26,035 nucleotides of DNA. Origin: Octopus sinensis. Its lineage: Eukaryota. The notes below the pieces were generated by a model. It saw only the letters and a list, made by a program, of their open reading frames with translations. It was not told where the DNA came from and did not search any database. Location of the stretch: NCBI RefSeq assembly GCF_006345805.1, contig NW_021836754.1, positions 1 through 26,035 on the forward strand, read 5' to 3'. The translations under genes and the position numbers were made by a program. Positions within the stretch are counted from its first letter, which is position 1. Each line of letters begins with the position of its first letter. Shown here one piece after another: positions 290 through 25,853 of this stretch.

Positions 290-835
290 TTAAATGATTA
301 TGTCCTCAATATAAGTATATATAATTTTGAGTTCTCTAGTAATTATATTTTGCTGCAGTACTATATTGAACCCGGCATGATTTCTGACATTAACTACATG
401 ACTGAGATGGGCGATTAGATATAATGTATACGCGGGAAATGCACGTATATATTGGTATATATACGCAGAAATTTATCCGCATGTATGTGTATTATTCGCT
501 AATATATTGTCTGTGTATCTCTACTGAAGAGTGTAAAGTGATTTTTATTACAGAACACGAAATATTAATATATAGTGTTATCCCCGAAATGTTTGTAAAT
601 CTTCCTGCCCATTATCTCGCATTCGGCCTTGTGTTGCAATTAAAATAGAGAAGAAATTTAGAGTGGCTTGTAGACATTTGACATGTACTTGTAGCCTATA
701 GGCGTTGGCACTCCAGTGCCCTTAATTATAATTATATTTCTATAATTATATACTTAAAAATTAATTTTACCGATATAGTGGTTTTTATGCGCTGGCCACT
801 GATATAATCATTTTAATGGTTATATTCTCAATTTA
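290..835 (+). mobile_element. Penelope-like pLTR fragment carrying a hammerhead motif (boundaries approximate)
   Basis: Contains the HHR at 516-580 and a short hairpin at 707-720; ends at a (TA)n run. The PLE call is inferred from the known association of type-I HHRs with palindromic stem III and PLEs. Confidence 0.5.
516..580 (+). ncRNA. Type-I hammerhead ribozyme motif (AUA site)
   Basis: CTGAAGA 524-530; stem II GTGT/ACAC; GAAA 559-562; palindromic stem III ATATTAATAT then A; stem I TATCTCTA/TAGTGTTA with 6 of 8 pairs. Confidence 0.7.
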
Positions 836-850
836 TATATATATATATTA

Positions 851-1156
851 TTAAACAAAGATAAATGCGATACAATAAAATTAATTATAATCGCCGGTGT
901 ACCAGTACACGCCATACATTATACATATATCATTACATTCAAGGCGAAGAGTGCACTAGATACACAATAGCTGGATAAATTTAGTGAGATGAAAATTAAA
1001 AAACTTTTACACTTAACTTTTCTTATACTGCAGTTTCGCCAAATTCAGTAATAAAAAAAGTATTTATTTACTCAGGCTGGCTCTTCAGTAAGATTCCTGT
1101 AATGATGGGGAAGACCATATCAATAGACCCATGTGCGTCTATCGAATCTCTTTCTA

Positions 1157-1160
<4 letters not shown>
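851..1160 (-). mobile_element. Penelope-like pLTR fragment carrying a hammerhead motif
   Basis: Lies between two (TA)n runs and contains the canonical HHR at 1021-1093. Tail-to-tail with the 290-835 fragment. Confidence 0.55.
1021..1093 (-). ncRNA. Canonical type-I hammerhead ribozyme (GUA site)
   Basis: Minus strand reads TCTTA CTGAAGA GCCA...TGGC GAA ACTGCAGT A TAAGA: perfect 5-bp stem I, G-C-closed stem II, intact core, palindromic stem III. Confidence 0.85.
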
Positions 1161-1191
<31 letters not shown>

Positions 1192-1544
1192 GTGTGTGTG
1201 TGTGTGTGTTGTTGTGTGTGTTGTGTGTGGGTGTGTGTGTGTGTTTATATATGCACACGCACATAGGTAAAATAAGGATAAACACTTATTTCATTTTGAC
1301 GTTCTTAGGTGCATTTCCCCATTACGGTTGTTTGGAAACCAGCAATGGAATTTCCAAATGCTGTTAATCACAGTTATGTATAAACTGATATAATAAAGTG
1401 TTCCCTGGGGTTCGTTTGTAGTTGAGTATCTATATGCAAATGGAACATCTGTCGCAAGGCCCCAAACAACCATAATGACGAAACGCGCGTAAAATTTTTA
1501 ATATGGAATAAATTTGTGTTCATCATTATTTCTCAGACATTTAA

Positions 1545-1930
1545 GGCGGCGAGCTGGCGGAAACGTTAGCACGCCGGGCGAAATGTTTAGCGGTATTTCG
1601 TCTGTTTTACGTTCTGAAATTCCACCGAGGTCGACTTTGCCTTTCATTCTTTCAGAGTCGATAAATTAAGTACCAGTTACGCACTTGGGGTCAATGTAAT
1701 CGACTTAATCCGTTTGTCTGTCCTTGTTTGTCCTCTCTGTGTTTAGCCCCTTGTGGGAAATAAAGAAATAGGTATTTCGTCTGTTTTACGTTCTGAAATT
1801 CCACTGAGGTCGACTTTGCCTTTCATTCTTTCAGAGTCGATAAATAAGTACCAGTTGCATACTGAAGTCAATGTGATCGACTGGCCCCCACCCCAAAAAT
1901 TGCAGGCCTTGTGCCTAGAGTAGAAGAGAT
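1545..1930 (+). mobile_element. Dimeric tRNA-derived SINE (family A; core resembles the MetaSINE central domain)
   Basis: Head GGCGGCGAGCTGGCGGAAACGTTAGC; the core GGTATTTCGTCTG...GGTCGACTTTGCCTTTCATTCTTTCAGAGTCGATAAAT..AGTACCAGTT occurs at 1592 and again at 1771; a diverged copy lies at 9816. The Meta-domain assignment is from memory. Confidence 0.8.
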
Positions 1931-2122
1931 CATTTCTCATACATTTGCTCTGCAGCTCATAACTAGAAAAATATTCCGTATCGAAGTTACTTAACAATTC
2001 TACAGAAAGTAGACTGGATTATGAAAATCTTTGTGGAGCTCTAAATATAACAGTAGCAGTTGTACGTCTATTTATGAACACAATTTCTAACACACACACA
2101 CACACACACACATGTACAACAT

Positions 2123-2433
2123 GGAGGCGAAATGGCCCAGTGGTTAGGGCAGCGAACTCGCGGTCGTAGGATCGCGGTTTCGATTCCCAGACCGGGCGTT
2201 GTGAGTGTTTATTGAGCGAAAACACCTAAAGCTCCGCGAGGCTCTGGCAGGGGGTGGTAGCGATCCCTGCTGTACTCTTTCGTCACAACTTTCTCTCACT
2301 CTTTCTTCTGTTGGCCTGCTCGCTTAGCCAGCGGGGTGGCGTCATTTGAAGGCTAAAACAATGCGAAGCGTATTGTGACCAGCGATGTGTAGCAACATCT
2401 GGTAGCCTGGGCGGTCACGTGACGTGACGTGAT
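2123..2433 (+). mobile_element. tRNA-derived SINE (family B), full length
   Basis: A box TGGCCCAGTGG, B-box-like GGTTTCGATTCCC, CACGTGA-type repeat tail; homologous to 13191-13505 and 20742-21047. Confidence 0.9.
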
Positions 2434-2489
2434 ATATGTACAACACACACATGATACACATGTATGTATACGTATATGCATATAACGAC

Positions 2490-2785
2490 AGTCTTTCATT
2501 GTCCGAGAAAGACGGTTCTGCAATTTCTTACGGAACACAAGCTGCACACATTATAAGTTTATAGTGATCAAATGAACGTGCTGTACATTGGCTCATTCAC
2601 TCCCTTCAAATTGACGTTGCCTGAACAGATACACAGTGTTACATATGTCAAATGCCGAGTGTGAGCGAAGAGCAACGTGAGATGAGGTGCTTTGCCCAAA
2701 ACACAACGCATCACCCGGTCCAGGAATTGAAACCACAATCTCGAAATCGTAAGTGTAATACCATAACCACTAGGCTATACGCACT
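2490..2785 (-). mobile_element. Old tRNA-derived SINE (family D)
   Basis: Minus-strand head TAGCCTAGTGG...GGTTTCAATTCCTGGACCGGG; the tail segment GAGCCAATGTACAGCAC..ATTTGATCACTATAAAC matches about 22379-22416. Confidence 0.7.
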
Positions 2786-3054
2786 TACACACACATTCAC
2801 TCACACGCATTCACACACACACACACACACACACGCGCGCGCGCACACACACCACACACACGCACACACACACACCACACACATACTTGATACAGTCACA
2901 ATGTGTAAAGATTCTTAAAAGTTATTAACCATTAAAACATTTAAGATTATTTTTGAAAAACTGAATGACACGAACCTTTTGGGAAAAGACGTTTTCGTAT
3001 TGTGTGGAAGCGCCTTCGTTGTTCAGCTTTTGAAACACACACGCGCTCTCATGA

Positions 3055-3086
<32 letters not shown>

Positions 3087-3126
3087 CTACGTATATATTT
3101 GTGTGTGTGTGTGTTTGTGCGTAAAT

Positions 3127-3325
<199 letters not shown>

Positions 3326-3334
3326 TCATATAAT

Positions 3335-3772
3335 CCTATGAACCCAGAAATTGAAAACAGAGGGTTACCCACTTGCAAACAAATGTGGTAACATATAACA
3401 ATATGGACCAAGGTTCGTGGTCTTTTTCGTAGGCTTTTCTTACCACGGATAAACCTTACTTGCTTTCCCCTTTACACCATACATCATGACACTGTTATAC
3501 ACGATCCCTATTGATCGTTTTTTTTCCTCTCCCTCTTTTTTTCCCTCTTTTTTCTTCTTTTTTCATTTTTCTTTTTTTTCCTTTTTTCTTTTTTGTCTTT
3601 TCCTTTTTTACTTCTTTTCCTTTTTTTCTTTTTTTCTTTTTTTGTTCTTTTTTCCCTTTTACGATCCCTTTTGATCGAAAACCTACGCCACTTTTTTTTT
3701 CTCCCCCAAAAGAAAAGCTCTACCTTGTAACTTGTCCCATCTGTGTGCAGCCCTGTGTGGTCAATAAAGAAA
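3335..3772 (+). mobile_element. 3' UTR fragment of a LINE (probably L1/Tx1 group)
   Basis: T-rich tract; duplicated CGATC-cctwtt-GATCG hairpin; ends GCCCTGTGTGGTCAATAAAGAAA at a microsatellite. No coding part is present, so the clade is inferred. Confidence 0.55.
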
Positions 3773-3775
3773 CTT

Positions 3776-3901
3776 ATCTATCTATCTGTCTGTCTGTCTG
3801 TCTGTATGTCTGTCTGCCTGCCTGTCTGTCTGTCTGTCTGTCTATCTATTTATCTATCAGTATGTCTGTCTGTCTGTCTGTCTGTCTGCCTGTCTGCCTG
3901 C

Positions 3902-3936
<35 letters not shown>

Positions 3937-4038
3937 TTTATCTATCAGTATGTCTGTCTGTCTGACTGTCTGTCTGTCTGTCGGTTCCTCCGTCCGCTGT
4001 CTGTTTGTCTGTCTGTTGTTTGTTTGTCTATATGTCTG

Positions 4039-4069
<31 letters not shown>

Positions 4070-4080
4070 ATCTAGCTATC
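3776..4080. repeat. (TGTC/TATC)n compound microsatellite
   Basis: Direct reading. Confidence 0.95.
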
Positions 4081-4651
4081 TGTCTACATATATTATATAT
4101 ATATATATATACATATCAAATTCCTGAATGTGTCTGTATGTATACCTGTATGTGACCAATATGACACTCGCTTATATACTATACCATGTAAATCGACCCA
4201 GCAGTTACCTTAATTATTCATGCCATATTACTTTCACATGTAACTTAACTCTTCAGTCACATTTTTCATACAGTATTTCTTTTAACAGTTGTTCCAACCA
4301 TCGCGTTACTAAATCTGTACCATTTCAATAGTTAATTTGATAGAGATTTTACACGATAACTTTAATATCTTATATGTTTATTGCTCCACTAGTCACATTA
4401 TTTTCGTATATTCTACTGGTAATTCTCTTTCATAGTATGTAAGTTCAAAGTAAATAAACAATTGCGATTTTTAATATGAGTATTAAGCCCATAAAGTTGA
4501 AAGGAAGGCTAAATGCCAAGTCATAGATATTCATAACTTCATCATCACTATATAAATTACACGTTATTAGTAATACTAGATACTGTGGACTAAATTATTG
4601 TTGAGAAAGTTGGGTTTGCCGTAAGGGACCTTCACACTACACCCAGAACAT

Positions 4652-4690
4652 CTATATCTATTTATCTCTCTCTCTCCTCTCTCTCTCTTT

Positions 4691-4726
<36 letters not shown>

Positions 4727-5105
4727 ATAAATATATATATAGATGAGATAGATAGATAGATATAGAATAGATAGACAGACAGACAGATAATAGATATGTA
4801 TATACATGTGTCTGTATATATGCATGTATGCATGGATGTATGTATATATATATATATGTTTATATATATAATGTATGTATATATGTATATATATGTATGT
4901 ATGTATTATATATTGTATATTATATTTGTATATACGTATGTATATAGATGTAATATGTATATAGTATATATGTGTATGTATGTAATATGTGAATATATAT
5001 ATATAACGGGAAGCTTTATGAAAATAAACAAAAGACGAAGGCAGGTGGAAAACAAACGAACAATTGTATTAGTATGGCGCTCAGGAAATAAAAAATAAAA
5101 CAAGT

Positions 5106-5176
<71 letters not shown>

Positions 5177-5195
5177 AGATAGATAGATTAGATAG

Positions 5196-5230
<35 letters not shown>

Positions 5231-5266
5231 TAGATAGATAGATAGAAGATAGATAGATATGGATAT
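4652..5266. repeat. Compound (TC)/(TA)/(GATA)/(TATG) microsatellite block, interrupted at 5004-5109
   Basis: Direct reading. Confidence 0.9.
5004..5109 (-). mobile_element. Short copy of the 3' part of the 6161-7055 repeat unit
   Basis: Reverse complement matches 6415-6579 (AAAGACTTGTTTT...CCTGAGCGCCATACTAATACAATTG...CCACCTGCCTTCGTCTTTTG...AAGCTTCC.GTTA); flanked by (TA)n. Confidence 0.9.
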
Positions 5267-6116
5267 AGAAACCCATTATCTGTCCGAAAATGTCAGAAAT
5301 GTTAAAATTCTAAAGAGACGACGGTGACATTACCGTAGAATAAAACTCCATTCGGAGTCAAAACTGTCCTTGTGGAAGTATTTCAAAAAATTACCCATGA
5401 AGCTAAGTAGCTTCGTATGTTTGAAAGCAAGGAAAGTTTGAAGAACATTCTAGTTAAATTCTCTATCAAATGCAGGAATAAGAAAAGAAATATTGTTGTC
5501 AAAAACAGAAAGAGAAAATGATACTGCGGTGGAAGTCAGTAGGCAAGTCAAAAATAAATGTCACATAAAATTTCACTGAAAATGAGAATATGAATGATTG
5601 AATGATGGAGCGCCTAGCACAATTATATGCAGAATATAAGTTTTCATTCATATATAATATCTTTTGGTACATGAGTATATAGATGAACGAAATTTCTACT
5701 CGGTAACCTCAAGGAAGTTGGTACTCTTATTGACAAAGAGCGAAATGACTCGTGCGAATTCTTCAACATTCACCCATTAGCGAGACACAGTTTATATATA
5801 AAACTTTCTGGAAAAATCTGATTCTGATTCTCTAAAGATTCTTTTTTTTTTTTTTGCGTTTGAATACAAAGGAATCTTGTCTCTTGTTCATTCGGATAGA
5901 CGCAGAGCTTAATAAAGAAACTTACTGTGGCCAAAATACATATACATTTCTGCATCAGATGTTATATATTGATTTCTTACATTGGCACAAACCGTCAGAT
6001 TTACATAGGAAATGAAGTTGCGTGACAATGATACTTTACAAACTTACACACAGCTATACGTATGAAGGTATTTGAATATCTATGTGTGTTTCTTTGTCTG
6101 AATAATACTCCCCACG

Positions 6117-6156
<40 letters not shown>

Positions 6157-6381
6157 ATACTCTGTATAGTTATTTATATGGGCCAACCTAGACACATACA
6201 TGTATACATATTGTATGTGTGTGTGTTTAGTTTTTCTTCTTGAAGTATGGCCACATCTTACGCCTCATACCTGGGAATTGGAAATACGTAGACGCACGAG
6301 TATGCTTATATATAAATACATGCAAAGTTCATACCCTTCCATTTTTTCTCTCCTTCTTTCTTTGTTTTTTTTCTCTGTGTA

Positions 6382-6419
6382 TCTTTCTGTTGAAGAGCGT
6401 AGGCTCGAAACGTTAAAGA
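6382..6419 (+). ncRNA. Variant minimal hammerhead-like motif, copy 1
   Basis: TCTTT CTGTTGAA GAGC-GTAG-GCTC GAAA CG T T AAAGA: 5-bp stem I, 4-bp stem II, ACGT palindromic stem III. The core differs from CUGANGA (A6 to U, plus an extra A). Confidence 0.55.
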
Positions 6420-6590
6420 CTTGTTTTATTTATATTTCCTGAGCGCCATACTAATACAATTGTTTGTTTGTATTCCACCTGCCTTCGTCTTTTGTGTATT
6501 TCCGTAACCTGCCTTCGTCTTTTGTGTATTTCCGTAAACCTGCCTTCGTCTTTTGTCTATTTTCATAAAGCTTCCGTTAATATATGCCTT

Positions 6591-6623
<33 letters not shown>

Positions 6624-6853
6624 ATATATACATCTGTGTAGTATTTATATGGGCCAACCTAGACACATACATGTAACATATTGTATGTGTGTGTGTTTAG
6701 TTTTTCTTCTTAAAGTATGGCCACATCTTACGCCTCATACCTGGGAATTGGAAATACGTAGACGCACGAGTATGCTTATATATAAAAATACATGCAAAGT
6801 TCATACCCCTCCATTTTTTCTCTCCTTCTTTCTTTGTTTTTTTTCTCTGTGTA

Positions 6854-6891
6854 TCTTTTTGTTGAAGAGCGTAGGCTCGAAACGTTAAAGA
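6854..6891 (+). ncRNA. Variant minimal hammerhead-like motif, copy 2 (C3 to T)
   Basis: Same as 6382-6419 except that the core reads TTGTTGAA. Confidence 0.45.
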
Positions 6892-7055
6892 CTTGTGTTT
6901 TATTTATATTCCTGAGCGCCATACTAATACAATTGTTGTTTTGTATTCCACCTGCCTTCGTCTTTTGTGTATTTCCGTAAACCTGCCTTCGTCTTTTGTG
7001 TATTTTCGTAAACCTGCCTATATATCTTTTGTCTATTTTCATATATATCATAAAG

Positions 7056-7099
<44 letters not shown>

Positions 7100-7699
7100 A
7101 TCAATCATATTATATGTATGTATGTGTATATTGTAAAAACGGGCGAGGAAAGCGAAGATCAGTTTAGTAAGAAGGTATGTGACGTTAGGAGAGTATGATG
7201 ATTACTTATCATCGTTTTTTCCAAGCTACCTTTGTATCTAAATACAAAATAATATTTCTAGAATACACTCAACGGAATTGGTATCCATTGCACAAACGTA
7301 ACCTTTCAACTCCTAGCAACTACAATTCACATTTAAGGACCACAAGGGTAACTTTAAAAGCAATTTCTCTATCTGGATCAGCATCACATTCAAATTGGAT
7401 ATGGAAACTATGCAAAAACATTCTAATCAAATTCAAACCTGAACTATAAGCAGCCGCCAATTTGTTTCTTTTGGATAGCATAAACAATCAGTCATTACAT
7501 ATCTTTATTTGTTTGTTCACATACACAAAGCCTATTTGCCCCAATTTGCTATAAATAACTACCACACCTCAATCTTCAAGCTGCTCCTCTTCAAAAGTTT
7601 CAGCCCACACGAGGTCTATCACCAATATCAGTGAAGAAATCATCATCAGCTTACTAGAGAGGAGAGAGAAAATCACTTATTTTTAAGTCCCAAAATATG

Positions 7700-9150
7700 A
7701 AAGAAAAAAAATCTTTCGATGACCCTTTCGATATCAGCCCCATGGATTTTCATTCTCTCCAAATTAAGTGAAGCTTATCATTCGTGGAAGGAAGATTATA
7801 CAAAAATGATGGCCTTGTGTTAAACAAAAACTATAATTCAACAATGACTAGAATCAGAAAGAACCTTCATTGCTTATTTAAGAATTATCGGACCCTACCT
7901 CGAAGTTTATAACCGTAGAAATATATATAAAAAAAGAAAAATTAATCCACCCTATAATCCTTCAGTAATCCCAGACATAACCAGAATATTCATTTCCTTA
8001 AGTGGCACTTTCCACCCAACATAATTAATATGAATATTTAATAAGAGTGTGATAAAACATCTTTGCGACCTCCGATCTTGACTAATGTATTCCTGACTCC
8101 AATATTTCTTATGTAATAAGTCTAAAGATACAACTAATTCCTCTTCAATGTCATCACAGCCAATTCTGTCAAGACTTATAAGTCTTCACTACCACTGACC
8201 TCAAAGTCAGACACGAGAAATATGATTTCTTTTAGATATAAACTTAGAAGAAAACAGCCCCCACCCTCTCTCTCTCTCTGTTAAAATATATTGAAACCTC
8301 AAATCCAACAATATAGCACACAGCTTTAACAGAACGATATTCACTAAAACCAAACCTTGTGATGGAGGTAAAGACGTGCGGACTGAATTTAGCAGAGATT
8401 TTTTGAATTCTACAAGGGATGGACCTTTATTCAACAGATGTTTCGAAAGTCTTATCTCATGCAACAGAAAAATCCTTAGAACCTACGATTGCTTCTATCG
8501 AGCATATACCAACGCCACCACATTTCCCTTAACCTAAATTTTCACACCCATACGCATTCTACCTTCGGGTTAAATACACACGTACAATTCCTCGAAAGAC
8601 GGCTTCCTCACCCGTTGTCTTGCAAACCTGTAGTTTTTTTTTAACCCTTCTACCCTTTTGACCCACTATGATCCTTAACCCACTCTACACGACACACAAA
8701 CCATACAACCTTATGTTTTCCCTTTGTATTTTTCACGTAATCTTCACATTTTTTTTTTTTTTGTTTTTGCTTGTGTCTCCACGTAATTTTTTTTACATCC
8801 TTTTTGTCCTTTTTGCCATATTTCTTAACGTCTTTCCCGGAAATTTTTCCATGTTTCTGCCTTGCAATTTTCTTAAACCTCTCGCATATTTCCCTTGCAT
8901 CCTTCTCGAGTTGTTATATACGATTACTTTCTTACGGTTTAATTATTTTAAGCATGTAATTTCTTTTCCTCATTGCCTCATATCTGCGTTCCTACTTTAC
9001 CGATTCCTCACATTCGTTGTTTTCCGTCTTACACATTTTATCGTACACTTCACCTCTTCTGCCATGCATTTCTCTCCACTTCTTAACAACCTCAAGCTTT
9101 TTGTGATCATGCTATTTATTCGCTGTTGTTTTTTAAAGAGTTGATATTTA
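7700..9150 (-). pseudogene. Possible heavily decayed LINE ORF1-like sequence
   Basis: Purine-rich minus strand with K/E-rich broken frames, then KFISKRNHISRV* at about 8207-8245, which could be an eroded CCHC knuckle. Weak. Confidence 0.25.
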
Positions 9151-20567: not shown

Positions 20568-20636
20568 ATATAGCTTCAGGCGACCGACCAAAGCCTTGTG
20601 GGTGGTAGACGGAAACTGAAAGAAGCCCGTCGTATG
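20568..20636 (+). mobile_element. SINE family C internal fragment
   Basis: CCGACCAAAGCCTTGTG...GGTAGACGGAAACTGAAAGAAGCCCGTCG is the reverse complement of about 22184-22247 and 23398-23463. Confidence 0.8.
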
Positions 20637-20643
20637 TGTATAT

Positions 20644-21107
<464 letters not shown>

Positions 21108-21111
<4 letters not shown>

Positions 21112-21459
21112 AAAGTGTAAATAATTTTTCCGTGGTCTTTTAGACAACCAACAATTATTTACCGGTAAATTTCGTTATGTAAATATGACTTTTAGCGTCA
21201 GGAACTTCTGTAGAGTTCAGTATATATAGTAAATATAATTAAAGGGGCAGGCAACAGGTTGCTCTGCCGCATACCGAAGGAATTAGAAATGGCAGTCAAA
21301 GACTGTTTATTTACATTTTCTACAAGTGGAGACTCCATATACGACATAACCCTGCGATTCACATACGCAAAATCGGAGTAGCAAATAAACGAAAACAATA
21401 CCTTACCGTTAATGGTGAACATGTTTCAAGATCGTACGATCTAGAAACATGTTCACCAT
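21108..21459 (-). mobile_element. Probable PLE fragment ending in a 48-bp fold-back palindrome
   Basis: Starts at (TA)n; 21412-21459 is a palindrome containing GAAACATGTT on both strands. Confidence 0.45.
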
Positions 21460-21460
21460 G

Positions 21461-22180
21461 TCCGAGTCTAATCGCGGACAGAGAGTGAGTGTATACTCTT
21501 CTTTGCTGTCATGTCTCAACAATGAGCCTTTTTTGGACCAAATAGTGACTGGGGACGAGAAATGGGTTCTCTATAAAAATGACAAGCGCCAAAGACAGTG
21601 GGTAGGCAAAAGAGAAACACTGGCATCCCAGGTTAAAGAAGGTCTTCACCCACGTAAGTTGTTATTAGCTGTTTGGTGGGTTTAGTCCACTTTGAACTTT
21701 TAAATCCAAACCAAACGATAACAAAGTAGATCTACTGCGAGCAGCTTGAGCGGCTTAAGCCAGCGCTAGAGGGAAAACAACCATCTTTGGTTTCAAGACG
21801 AAAGGTGTTCTTCCATCAGGATAATGAGCAGTCACATACAGCGAGGATGGCATCCTAAAGGCTGGAATAGTTTGAATGGGAAACGATGCCACCACATTAG
21901 CCGGACATTGCTCCATCTGATTATCATTTATTCAGCCGTCTTTAGAATCATTTGGACGGGAAAAATACGAATTCTGCAGACGAGGTCAAAACAGTACTGG
22001 AAGAGTATTTTTTTTGTTACGGACAAGTGAATTTTGGAAGAGAAGCTAGATAGATGGAAGGGCATTGTACAAAGTGAAGGGGGGTATATTTTAGATTAAA
22101 AAAGGAATTTTGTTTATCTTAATTTTGAAAAGTAAAAGAAGTATAAAAAAAACCCACATTATCTATAAGATGACCCAATA
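21461..22180 (+). pseudogene. 5'-truncated mariner transposon (DDD transposase pseudogene plus right TIR)
   Basis: FLDQIVTGDEKW, LHPRKLLLAVWW, FFHQDN (D at 21820), PDIAPSDYHLF (D at 21919); stops and frameshifts; ends ...ATGACCCAA-TA. D2-D3 spacing is 32 residues here because two codons are missing relative to D34D. Confidence 0.92.
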
Positions 22181-22183
22181 TAT

Positions 22184-22301
22184 TCGACGGGCTTCTTTCA
22201 GTTTCTGTCTACCAAATCCACTCACAAGGCTTTCGTCGGCCTGAAGTTATAGTAGAAGACACTTGCCCAAGGTGCCATGCAGTGGGACTGAACCAGGAAC
22301 C
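22184..22301 (-). mobile_element. SINE family C fragment (B box and core)
   Basis: Matches about 23398-23511. Confidence 0.85.
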
Positions 22302-23054: not shown

Positions 23055-23141
23055 ACACACACACACGCACACATAGATGCCGGATCCCCGAGAACGATTT
23101 CAATAAAATATGATAAAAAAAGATAATATAGTATCTACTCA

Positions 23142-23531
23142 TTTACTTGTTTCAGTCATTTGACTGCGGCCATGCTGGAGCACCGCCTTTAGTCGAGCAA
23201 ATGGACCCCAGGACTTATTCTTTGGAAGCCTTATGCTACTTATTCTATCGGTGTATTTTGCCGAACCGCTAAGTTACGGGGACCTAAACACACCACCTTC
23301 AGTTGTCAAGCGATGTTGGGGGGACAAACACAGACACACAAACATATACACACATATACATATATATATATACATATATATATATATACATATATAGGAC
23401 GGCCTTCTTTCAGTTTCCGTCAACCAAATCCACTCACAAGGCTTTGGTCGACCCGAGGCTATAGTAGAAGACATTTGTCCAAGGAGCCATGCAGTGGGAC
23501 TGAACCCGGAACTATGTGGCTAGTAAGCAAG
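23142..23531 (-). mobile_element. SINE family C, body and 3' part (split by insertion)
   Basis: B box GGGTTCAGTCCC on the minus strand, internal (TA/TG) tract; breaks at AGTAAGCAAG and continues at 25815. Confidence 0.9.
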
Positions 23532-23864
23532 ATACTTTATTTCAAAGATTTTGCCATAAAGGCATGACACAGAGTAGTTTGGGGGCTGGACAAAAACACT
23601 GATGAGGTGAATGATGAAAAAAAGATGATATTAATGGGAGAAGACAAAAAAGGCCCGCCGATTTTTTGCTTCTCTAAAACATTATTCTCTTCTGTTAAAA
23701 GACAAAATGAGGTATTGAACATCTTACTTCAGCTTTACTATTATCGGACTTAATAGTCCATTTAAATATTGGGGTTTTAAGCCTCTTAAACACAATAACA
23801 TACAATAAACATTAAACATTATACAATAAACATTATAATACTGAGTCTTTTCAATCTCTTGTCA

Positions 23865-25111
23865 CTATTCCTCCCCAACATCGCTTGTGCCTGTATACTC
23901 CGCCATAACCCACGCCTCATTCAAGACCAAAGCGGGTTCCGAGTCGGCATCGCCAGGACACAAGCGATATTTCTCATTGAGTCCATACACATCACGGGTA
24001 ACATTATGACCTCCACATCTATCTGCGGAGGCCATTCGGGATCCTGTCTGAAGGTTAAAGGTACTCCCTTGTGGTGCTTTTCCATCGCCTTTTGTACCTC
24101 TCCGCCTCTGTAGAAAGAGACGAATAGCTCGTATTCATCCGGGTTCAGGTAGTCAATTCTACCGTTGGCGGCACAATTCCCCCCAACGGTGTCTCTTTCC
24201 CTGCCGGTGGCACAACCCCTACCGCCAAGGTTCCGGGACATTCAGGTGCTATATCCGGTGCTATTCCGGGACATTCCGATGCTATATCCCGTTTCTCTTC
24301 TTCTTCCTCTTTTTTTCTTCCCAACTGAGGGAGGGTGCGTCTCCTCCGTGACAAGGAGATTCAACTCCCCTGCCTCATCCCATTGTTGCTCACCTTCTTC
24401 CTCTTGCGGCCCTTCTTTGAGGAGTCCTCCGCCTTCTCGCCCGCCTTCGTTCCTTCTTTTACAGATGTCTCAACTGCTCCAGAACTTTGCTTTGTTCCTG
24501 AGGACAGTTTTTCTTTATATGGCCAGGCTCCAGGCACCGATGACACATGGGGAGGGGCGACCATCAAGAATCACCGGGTACTTGCACCCGGCCACTTTCA
24601 AAAGATCTGGCATAACCAGATTCATGGCTAATTGGTTCCACAGGGTCAAAATAGCTTTTGACCCAACCCAATCAGCCGCAGGAAGAATTTTCACATTGAG
24701 GAGCCTTGCTCCGCTGCCACCCAGACACCGACGGATAGTATCCTCTATTCACTCGGGTTCAATTCCGGGTGGCAAACCACAGACCCAAGCCCTCGTCAAC
24801 TTTTTCCCGCGATAAGTGGGAAGAAACAAAATTTCTCTACCATCAAAATGCTGACTCGTAAAACTGCGAGCCTCCTCTGGGATGTCAAATAGCAACCACA
24901 CTGTTGCATATTTGACGCTCCTAGAGATATACTTAATGGTTGGCTGATGCTCCGCCAACTCCTGCTCAATCAGCTGCTTGGAGAAGACGGCAATGGTGTC
25001 GAGAACCTTTGAATACGTTCTCAACACCACCCTCCTCTCTTCTTGCTGTCTGAACCACTCCTTAAGTGGGACAATCTCCCACTCTACAATATTATCCCTA
25101 TTTTTTGCCAT
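23865..25111 (-). pseudogene. L1/Tx1-type ORF1 (gag-like nucleic-acid-binding protein) with CCHC zinc knuckle; disrupted
   Basis: MAKNRDN...VCGLPPGIEPE*(TGA at 24749)IEDTI...MPDLLKVAGCKYPVILDGR, frameshift in a C run, then CHRCLEPGHIKKNC at 24545-24504, a basic KKGRKRKK segment and a C-terminal region in further frames. The stop position is approximate. Confidence 0.8.
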
Positions 25112-25311
25112 GTTTTAAATTAAAAAGTCAAAATAGTTCACAAATTTCAAAAAGAAAAGAGAGAAATCAAAAGGAAGCAAAAAAGAAGAAGAAAAAAAGC
25201 AACAGTTCAATAGAAGAAGAAAACAACAGTTCAACAAACTCAGAAAAAAAATCTTCTGGGCATTCAGATACTCCAAGCGCTATGATACTCCGATTAGAAC
25301 CTAAACTGATC

Positions 25312-25598
25312 CACTTGAAATACAGCTTTCCAATTATTGGCAAATGTAGTTGTAAAAACACACACTATTCACAAACAGCGAACAAGTTTTGGTGGCAGGA
25401 TACGCCACCAAACTATACTTCTCACAATGAGAAAAATATTTTCACTTAATGGGAACACTTGAAATACAGCTTTCCAATTATTGGTAAACGTTGTTGTAAA
25501 AACACACACTATTCACAAAAGGTGAACAACTTTTGGTTGAAGGATATGCCCCCAAACTAAACTTCTCACAATGAGAAAAAAATTTCACTTAATGTGAA
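25312..25598. repeat. Tandem 144-bp monomers (x2) in the element 5' UTR
   Basis: CACTTGAAATACAGCTTTCCAATTATTGG starts at 25312 and 25456; the copies differ by scattered substitutions. Confidence 0.95.
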
Positions 25599-25814
25599 CA
25601 ATATTGCTGAACTGCAAGCAGACCAACATCCTGAATCCACTGAGGGCTCCTTATTTGTAAAAATATAACCAGAGACAACAACCCCCACTGGACCCAAGAG
25701 ACAAGAGCCTTACCTTGCAGCACCTACTTTTTCGCTGGTTAAACACCGCCAGCTATCTTCCTCAGTGCACGACACAATGACGGATGCGTACACTGACAAC
25801 AAATACTCATGGGA

Positions 25815-25853
25815 AGTAAGCAAGCTACTTACCACACAGCCACTCCTGTGCCT
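25815..25853 (-). mobile_element. SINE family C 5' head (A box), separated from its body
   Basis: Minus strand AGGCACAGGAG TGGCTGTGTGG TAAGTAGCTTGCTTACT joins directly to 23521 once the insert and one TSD copy are removed. Confidence 0.88.

What the first reader, a model, noticed from the sequence alone, without database searches (positions are those of the whole stretch)
23522..25824. TSD-bounded retroelement that encodes only ORF1 (no RT): a possible cephalopod 'half-LINE' family
Seen: a 10-bp TSD (extendable to 16 bp with one mismatch, AGTAAGCAAG[a/c]TACTT) encloses 2283 bp holding a 5' UTR with tandem monomers, one L1/Tx1-style ORF1 with a CCHC knuckle, and a 3' UTR ending in a stem-loop plus AATAAAG. 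No ORF2 sequence is recognisable. Known: LINE copies usually lose the 5' end and keep the end of ORF2; ORF1-only non-autonomous elements (HAL1) are described mainly from vertebrates. Inference: this unit was retrotransposed in trans as an ORF1-only RNA.
Basis: partly seen in the sequence, partly recalled or inferred. Interest (0 to 1): 0.8.

Follow-up and report, generated by a model that had tools for sequence, protein, structure and literature searches.

The report
SINE-targeting half-LINE retrotransposon in octopus
This is a decayed copy of a multi-copy retrotransposon, likely from an octopus, that encodes only one predicted RNA-binding protein and sits at one fixed base inside a very common short repeat, likely pasted there by a full-length LINE that shares its target and RNA tail, a pairing that would let one test why such half-elements keep that protein.

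Summary
Confirmed and extended. The 2.28-kb minus-strand element is a dead copy of an ORF1-only non-LTR family: 18 of 29 other loci carry both ends over 1.85-2.66 kb, and no ORF2 follows ORF1 in 30 of 30 ORF1-selected loci. A 5.45-kb LINE with an unbroken 1,129-aa EN-RT-zinc-finger ORF2 uses the same base (27 of 30 loci), shares only the last ~40 nt (a covarying 4-bp hairpin plus AATAAA) and lies in tandem with an ORF1-only copy at L177. ORF1-only families form one long-stemmed clade, show dN/dS 0.10-0.27 in the two-RRM-plus-knuckle region, and made 23 of 30 sampled junctions against 6 autonomous. Works like HAL1/HeT-A/Ag-Sponge; the partner is Tx1-like, clade not formally shown. Trans mobilisation is inferred. 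Not found in the papers searched; Repbase and Dfam could not be checked. New variant of a known kind.

The parts
25816..25851 (-). 5' half of the host SINE-like repeat (first 36 nt; Pol III box-A-like motif at 25832-25842, motif recalled, not tested)
   Evidence: 97% to nt 1-36 of empty copy L143; motif position
25816..25830 (-). 5' copy of the 15-bp target-site duplication
   Evidence: 15 bp in 16 of 50 junction pairs
23538..25815 (-). ORF1-only non-autonomous non-LTR retrotransposon, 2278 bp, dead copy
   Evidence: 18 of 29 other loci have both ends, 79-85% identical
25112..25815 (-). 5' UTR, family-specific; no match to the 5' UTR of the young sister family or of the autonomous LINE
   Evidence: blastn
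25312..25600 (-). two tandem 144-bp monomers, 89% alike
   Evidence: one or two per copy
23865..25111 (-). ORF1 (about 415 codons), broken by one stop and several indels; N-terminal ~185 aa predicted as two RRM-like domains
   Evidence: model and fold searches on the unbroken sister ORF1 of L116
24504..24545 (-). CCHC zinc knuckle (CX2CX4HX4C)
   Evidence: read directly; Pfam zf-CCHC in 11 of 13 aligned ORF1s at E<=1, best 4.9e-05
23538..23864 (-). 3' UTR, homologous among ORF1-only families; only the last ~40 nt match the autonomous LINE
   Evidence: (38 nt, 79%, E 0.01)
23552..23564 (-). 4-bp stem, 5-nt loop hairpin shared with the autonomous LINE; likely the ORF2p recognition signal
   Evidence: 98.9% of 88 cells paired, 7 double changes, 0 of 500 shuffles
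23536..23541 (-). terminal AATAAA; its last AA is shared with the target
23523..23537 (-). 3' copy of the TSD (one mismatch to the 5' copy)
23136..23537 (-). 3' part of the host SINE-like repeat (box-B-like motif at 23496-23506, recalled; microsatellite; tandem 3' tail)
   Evidence: 83% over 403 nt to nt 22-399 of empty copy L143

Best explanation
The element is a dead copy of an ORF1-only, non-autonomous LINE lineage whose copies sit at one base of an abundant SINE-like repeat, and it was likely inserted there in trans by the ORF2 protein of a Tx1-like LINE that uses the same base and ends in the same 40-nt tail. Shown: family structure, fixed site and orientation, shared tail, a partner with unbroken ORFs, selection on ORF1. 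Inferred steps: (1) the ORF1-only RNA is made, probably starting inside target-derived sequence; (2) it is translated into an ORF1p predicted to have two RRMs and a knuckle, which would coat its own RNA; (3) partner ORF2p would bind the 3' hairpin, nick the bottom strand of the target at a TT/AC step and prime on the terminal AA; (4) second-strand joining gives a 13-15-bp TSD, aided by the target-like leader; (5) the insertion lands between the putative A and B boxes and would silence that SINE copy, while regenerating the site so that tandem arrays form.
For: Both ends in 18 of 29 loci; target follows the tail in 24 of the 26 that reach the 3' end and precedes the head in 17 of the 19 that reach the 5' end; 1 of 500 random windows passes. 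25 of 30 loci chosen by ORF1 protein and 27 of 30 chosen by ORF2 protein have the same target at the same base. 236 exact filled junctions, 23,992 exact empty sites, controls 0; 1 reversed junction. 5'-truncated stubs of 110-720 bp sit between the two target halves with variable 5' joins (L034, L050, L060, L062, L070, L071, L083, L086, L087, L089), as expected from independent TPRT. Partner: L122 and L177, ORF2 with Exo_endo_phos, RVT_1 and zf-RVT, best PDB match L1 ORF2p, E 3e-65. L177 holds autonomous LINE + TSD + ORF1-only element between the two SINE halves. Hairpin covariation. dN/dS 0.10-0.27 for codons 1-215 in all 10 family pairs. 13 sister-family copies have an unbroken frame of 408 aa or more (picked partly for long frames). 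ORF1 fold: tandem RRMs, ZCCHC3-type RBD clusters at 0.91. Leader: the 5' TSD copy has a variant missing from the 3' copy in L122, L132, L182, L183; an extra target-like block precedes the element in L009, L013, L016, L027, L056.
Against: No experiment shows trans mobilisation. The ORF1s of all sampled autonomous families are only 27-40% identical to the ORF1-only ORF1, and with outside homologues the ORF1-only clade is not placed beside its partner, so origin by deletion from this partner is not shown. The dN/dS control (copy against its family's commonest codon) was 0.31-0.70, not 1, and the C-terminal part gave 0.37-1.05. 5 of 30 ORF1-chosen loci (L091, L093, L104, L110, L120) and 3 of 30 ORF2-chosen loci did not pass the target test. 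The SINE head was not recognised as tRNA-like by ARAGORN or Rfam. The hairpin is short and not more stable than shuffles. L027 joins this ORF1 to the last ~60 codons of an ORF2 and an autonomous tail.
Confidence: 0.88

Rival explanations
1. One-off post-insertion deletion of ORF2 from a full-length LINE copy.
For: The window copy is decayed; internally deleted copies exist (L056, L030, L214, L216); L027 joins this ORF1 to an ORF2 end.
Against: The same ORF1-to-tail join in 18 of 29 loci with both ends and in at least five diverged families; no ORF2 in 30 of 30 ORF1-chosen loci; the 3' UTR differs from the autonomous one except for the last 40 nt.
Confidence: 0.01
2. Hitch-hiking: one insertion into a SINE copy was amplified as a composite (by the SINE's own machinery or by DNA duplication), giving only apparent target specificity.
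For: All TSDs are alike; L018/L019 are a duplicated pair; Kojima raises the same rival for SINEU-3 (PMC4494074).
Against: 5' junctions and truncation points differ among copies; unrelated families and the autonomous LINE use the same base; tandem arrays separated by a TSD (L005, L012, L177); 200-bp flanks upstream of the SINE head in 12 full-length copies shared only short low-complexity matches.
Confidence: 0.03
3. The ORF1-only lineage is mobilised in trans as described, but it did not arise from its present partner: it is a relic of another Tx1-like lineage that captured the partner's 40-nt tail (tail swap), and has since changed 5' UTRs and tracked the tail.
For: Stem of 1.5 changes per site and no supported sister among 21 other ORF1s; weak grouping (80/90) with an unnamed outside protein P0232; no shared 5' UTR or inner 3' UTR with the partner; a real ORF1/foreign-tail chimera exists (L027).
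Against: In the within-genome tree the split (ORF1-only + SINE-targeting autonomous | other-target autonomous) has 96/87 support, which fits descent from the partner's stem; long branches blur both trees.
Confidence: 0.4
4. ORF1 is kept because it helps the autonomous partner or the host (a helper, as HeT-A Gag does for TART), not because it serves its own RNA.
For: PMC5786205 says such proteins likely multimerise with the autonomous element's proteins and enhance transposition; one 3'-truncated copy is annotated as a gene (P0121 = L104).
Against: Copies decay after insertion while master lineages show constraint, the pattern expected from selection on the element's own copying; the two ORF1s are under 30% identical.
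Confidence: 0.15

Closest known systems
HAL1 (half-L1) of mammals
   Same: Non-autonomous, encodes ORF1p only, depends on an L1-group ORF2p (PMC5753468; PMC5786205).
   Different: Here the ORF1 has two predicted RRMs and a CCHC knuckle, there is no poly(A) tail, the tail is a hairpin shared with the partner, insertion is fixed to one base, and the host is a mollusc. HAL1 arose from mammalian L1.
HeT-A (Drosophila, Jockey clade) and Ag-Sponge (Anopheles, CR1 clade)
   Same: Invertebrate ORF1-only non-LTR elements (PMC5786205). HeT-A is also targeted and forms tandem arrays with its partner (PMC5537684, abstract start; arrays recalled).
   Different: Different clades; HeT-A targets chromosome ends, not a sequence in a dispersed repeat.
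Tx1L of Xenopus (into Tx1D) and crocodilian Tx1-Mar with SINEU-3 (into Mariner-N4)
   Same: A target-specific LINE that inserts in another mobile element, with a non-autonomous rider sharing the target, a ~15-bp TSD and tandem insertions (PMC4494074).
   Different: The targets named in the passages read are DNA transposons, LTR elements, snRNA, 5S, satellites and microsatellites, not a SINE head; the rider there is non-coding, here it codes ORF1 under selection.
R2 and R2/R1 SIDEs of Drosophila
   Same: Site-specific non-autonomous derivatives that persist for millions of years, keep a structured 3' end with compensatory changes, and rely on co-transcription with the target (PMC3414825).
   Different: SIDEs are short, non-coding and confined to 28S rDNA.

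Membership tests
ORF1-only non-autonomous LINE (HAL1/HeT-A/Ag-Sponge kind) | multi-copy unit with ORF1 and no ORF2 | tested here: met
ORF1-only non-autonomous LINE (HAL1/HeT-A/Ag-Sponge kind) | TPRT marks: TSD, fixed 3' end, variable 5' truncation | tested here: met
ORF1-only non-autonomous LINE (HAL1/HeT-A/Ag-Sponge kind) | ORF1 intact in source elements and under purifying selection | tested here: met
   dN/dS 0.10-0.27 for codons 1-215; the commonest codon of the window family is a stop only at the terminal codon; 13 unbroken sister copies
ORF1-only non-autonomous LINE (HAL1/HeT-A/Ag-Sponge kind) | mobilised in trans by an autonomous partner | not testable with these tools
   inferred from shared tail, shared base and tandem locus L177
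ORF1-only non-autonomous LINE (HAL1/HeT-A/Ag-Sponge kind) | origin by internal deletion of the partner (5' and 3' parts shared) | tested here: inconclusive
   only the last ~40 nt and a remote ORF1 homology are shared; trees disagree or are unresolved
HAL1 in the strict sense | derived from mammalian L1, with L1-type ORF1p | tested here: not met
   no L1 ORF1 Pfam family in 13 ORF1s; the ORF1 has a CCHC knuckle and its nearest named homologues are octopod proteins
L1 group (L1/Tx1) for the partner | two ORFs; ORF2 = APE endonuclease, RT, C-terminal zinc finger; nearer L1 than other RTs | tested here: met
   L1 ORF2p E 3e-65 against R2 E 6e-20
Tx1 clade for the partner | RT phylogeny with named Tx1 references | not testable with these tools
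   no hit named Tx1; no named reference sequence could be fetched
Tx1 clade for the partner | target-sequence preference, with relatives on other repeats | tested here: met
   27 of 30; sister families on (TC)n and on another repeat, as described for Tx1 members in PMC4494074
tRNA-derived SINE for the target | tRNA-related head with A and B boxes | tested here: inconclusive
   box-like motifs read by eye from recall; ARAGORN 0 in 6 loci, no tRNA match in Rfam for L143
tRNA-derived SINE for the target | short, highly dispersed, fixed 5' end, tandem-repeat 3' tail | tested here: met
   23,992 exact 33-mers; about 400-430 nt with a tandem tail in 4 of 6 empty loci printed
CORE-SINE / octopus OR2 for the target | CORE domain | not tested
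   resemblance recalled only; OR2 is named as an octopus CORE-SINE in PMC4758252 but its sequence was not seen

The most novel reading that the evidence does not exclude
Octopods carry an undescribed three-tier retrotransposon system: a hyper-abundant SINE, a Tx1-like LINE whose endonuclease cuts one base inside the SINE's promoter, and an ancient, still recently active radiation of ORF1-only riders that outnumber the LINE about four to one, read its 40-nt hairpin code, keep their own two-RRM ORF1 under selection and start their RNA inside the target. It would be the first ORF1-only lineage of a Tx1-like LINE and the first LINE specific for a SINE head among the cases found in print.
Probability: 0.5. 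Interest if true: 0.75.

Novelty: new variant of a known kind. Interest (0 to 1): 0.62.

Why it matters
Why ORF1-only LINEs keep ORF1 is an open question, so far argued mostly from old mammalian HAL1 copies and from HeT-A. Here unbroken ORF1-only copies (97-99% alike) and an unbroken partner lie in one genome, share a 40-nt tail and a single-base target, so cis versus trans roles of ORF1p can be assayed directly. It adds a stringent, hairpin-reading member to the L1 group, and a LINE that uses another retrotransposon's promoter as a renewable safe site, which could shape SINE survival in octopus genomes. An endonuclease that hits one base of a defined sequence with a short RNA tag is also of interest for targeted insertion. 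For annotation: such copies are mis-called as genes (P0121) and are probably lumped under L1-Tx1 or Unknown in automated libraries.

Tried and rejected
Pfam on five ORF1 pieces of the window family: nothing significant; NCBIfam on both ORF1s: nothing. ARAGORN and Rfam did not see a tRNA in the target. Folding energy of the tail was not above shuffles. A symmetric-cut model (the site is a 7-bp inverted repeat around 7 bp, predicting a 13-bp TSD and both orientations) is mostly rejected: 1 reversed junction against 236 forward (different pattern lengths) and 13 bp in only 2 of 50 pairs; the one reversed stub, L197, does have a 13-14-bp TSD. The 50 pairs include at least two false pairs with an upstream empty SINE (L020, L123) and L120 twice; L001 and several others were missed by the pattern. 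No RNA holder listed for the young sister family; contigs of one run guessed to be RNA cover all 30 bins, which shows nothing about expression. No L1 ORF1p chain was among the listed fold matches; that does not exclude it. Three homologue searches and two cluster look-ups gave no name with Tx1. Bao and Jurka 2010 was not held. Earlier scan findings: none. Dropped rows: 10 duplicate loci before clustering; L005, L015, L019, L027, L028 were left out of the window family; L134 was dropped from alignment A2; loci with HSPs under 95 aa were left out of the tree.

Full report
Observation. The described unit is real and lies on the minus strand: 5' UTR with two 144-bp monomers, ORF1 from 25111 to 23865 with a CCHC knuckle, a 327-bp 3' UTR ending in a small hairpin and AATAAA, and a direct repeat on both sides. 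ORF1 is broken here by a stop at codon 121 and several indels. The partner's EN and RT find nothing in the window (best E 0.18).

It is a family. A DNA search of the own genome G000 scored 40 of 2948 candidates and returned 60 matches. Of the 29 other loci fetched, 18 have both ends, spanning 1852-2663 bp at 79-85% identity (L018/L019 are one duplicated pair). An ORF1 protein search scored 150 of 9311 candidates, all matching at 63% or more. Of the 30 best loci none has ORF2 sequence after ORF1, and in 25 the tail comes 1.5-1.96 kb after the ORF1 start. Among 75 ORF1-bearing loci tested, only L016 (a neighbouring ORF2 piece) and L027 gave ORF2 hits; L027 is a chimera of this ORF1 and the last ~60 codons and tail of an autonomous element.

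The missed feature: one target base. The flanks are the two halves of one ~400-bp dispersed repeat (nt 1-36 and 22-399 of empty copy L143). The target follows the tail in 24 of 26 loci that reach the 3' end and precedes the head in 17 of 19 that reach the 5' end, against 1 of 500 random windows. The empty site occurs 23,992 times exactly, the filled 3' junction 236 times, controls 0; the reversed junction once. The apparent TSD is 15 bp in 16 of 50 pairs (range 8-23). Short 5'-truncated stubs lie between the same halves with differing 5' joins, so these are independent insertions. [quoted passage not shown]

The partner. Of the first 30 listed junctions, 23 carry the ORF1-only type 3' UTR (16 with ORF1 hits), 6 an autonomous type (5 with ORF2 hits), 1 neither; exact-match junctions favour young copies. 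L122 and L177 are 5.45-kb two-ORF elements between the same target halves; L177 has an unbroken ORF1 and a 1,129-aa ORF2 with endonuclease, RT and zf-RVT, nearest to L1 ORF2p in the PDB. 27 of 30 loci chosen by ORF2 protein have the target at the same base; the youngest are 95-99% identical in protein. In L177 the autonomous LINE, a TSD and an ORF1-only element follow one another. Related autonomous families at 63-65% end on (TC)n or on another repeat (part of that output was cut). This matches what PMC4494074 (passages and section 15) describes for the Tx1 clade, but no named Tx1 reference could be obtained, so I say Tx1-like.

The shared signal. ORF1-only and autonomous elements share only their last ~40 nt (38 nt, 79%, E 0.01). 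In 22 tails that I picked across families (of 84 collected) a 4-bp stem pairs in 98.9% of 88 cells, with 7 double changes at 2 pairs, 0 of 500 shuffles as high, and slid controls at 12-50%; the tails are related and the structure was taken from them, so this is support, not proof. Folding energy alone is not significant. Such hairpins mark stringent-type LINEs (PMC3747384, passages).

ORF1. A model of the unbroken sister ORF1 (L116, residues 1-215, pLDDT 76.6) matches tandem-RRM proteins (Foldseek E about 1e-4 with low TM-scores; single RRMs Z 7-8.8, rmsd 2-3); the Atlas lists CCHC and ZCCHC3-type RBD clusters at 0.91-0.93. Between five ORF1-only families, counted column by column, dN/dS is 0.10-0.27 for codons 1-215 (window family against the youngest 0.22, interval 0.14-0.33), 0.40-0.59 in the middle and 0.37-1.05 at the C-terminus; the copy-against-family control is 0.31-0.70. 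13 copies of the young sister families have unbroken frames of 408 aa or more, the youngest 97-99% alike (17 loci were fetched for their long frames). All 36 ORF1-only rows plus P0121 form one clade (100/100) apart from 14 autonomous rows. With 14 outside homologues the clade sits on a 1.5-substitution stem with no supported sister. Named homologues are from Octopus vulgaris, O. sinensis, O. bimaculoides and Argonauta; the young family is held in runs of four coded organisms, and three of these cover all 30 bins. The window family is 0.06-0.09 from its commonest codons, roughly 17-25 My at the rate used in PMC13282606.

How it likely works. Shown: structure, site, orientation, tail, partner, selection. 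Inferred: partner ORF2p binds the hairpin, nicks the bottom strand where the target's TT can pair with the RNA's last AA, and copies the ORF1-only RNA; the rider's own ORF1p coats its RNA. The RNA probably begins inside target-derived sequence: the 5' TSD copy carries a variant absent from the 3' copy in L122, L132, L182 and L183, and an extra target-like block precedes the element in five window-family loci. That would blur the true second nick and help 5' joining, as argued for R2 in PMC4494074.

Comparison with print. PMC5786205 (passages) lists three ORF1-only kinds: HeT-A (Jockey), HAL1 (L1), Ag-Sponge (CR1); none Tx1-like or molluscan. PMC5753468 (passages) defines HAL1. PMC3414825 (passages) covers SIDEs. 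PMC13282606 (parts 1-2 of 3 and a search of its one supplement) counts 80 L1-Tx1 families in O. vulgaris, 13 recently active with a mean of about 5.4 kb, and says nothing on targets or ORF1-only forms; its library on Zenodo was not seen and may hold these sequences. PMC9115989 and PMC4758252 (passages) do not describe it. Nine searches found no report of an ORF1-only Tx1-like element or of a LINE specific for a SINE; Bao and Jurka 2010, Kojima and Fujiwara 2004, Ohshima and Okada 1994 and Repbase Reports were not seen.

Verdict. Interest 0.62; 0.75 if it proves uncatalogued and the Tx1 and SINE calls hold.

Noticed in passing
L177 (G000:C8:54102500-54111500), 399-8130: Autonomous LINE with unbroken ORF1 and ORF2 followed, after one TSD, by an ORF1-only element, all between the two halves of one SINE copy.
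   Followed up: yes
L200, L202-L207: Sister autonomous family (ORF2 C-terminus about 64% identical) whose 3' ends lie on (TC)n microsatellites, like Kibi as described in PMC4494074.
   Followed up: partly
L198, L199, L201: Another sister autonomous family, all three followed by the same unidentified repeat: a third target.
   Followed up: no
L197: The only reverse-orientation junction: a ~25-nt tail stub with a 13-14-bp TSD in the same site.
   Followed up: partly
L027: Chimera: 5' two-thirds of an ORF1-only element joined to the last ~60 codons of ORF2 and the tail of an older autonomous family; template switch or deletion between tandem copies.
   Followed up: partly
L104 (G000:C28:4511110-4514673): A 3'-truncated ORF1-only copy in the SINE site; its 281-aa frame has a zero-length branch to P0121, annotated as an uncharacterised O. 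sinensis gene with three accessions. Likely a mis-annotation; co-option not tested.
   Followed up: partly
L005, L012, L043, L108, L120: Tandem arrays of different ORF1-only families or their 3' ends at one site.
   Followed up: partly
proteins P0002-P0018, P0375-P0435: The closest non-cephalopod ORF2 relatives (39-52% identical) are unnamed ENA records in clusters of up to 732 members, closer than lancelet or fish hits; host unknown.
   Followed up: no
window 21419-22030 (+): Broken frames that read like a mariner-type transposase (motif recalled, not searched).
   Followed up: no
window 6117-7096: 2.1 copies of a 472-bp unit, 91% alike, holding 31-bp tandem repeats.
   Followed up: no
window 22178-22301 and 20569-20719: Further fragments of the same SINE-like repeat.
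   Followed up: no
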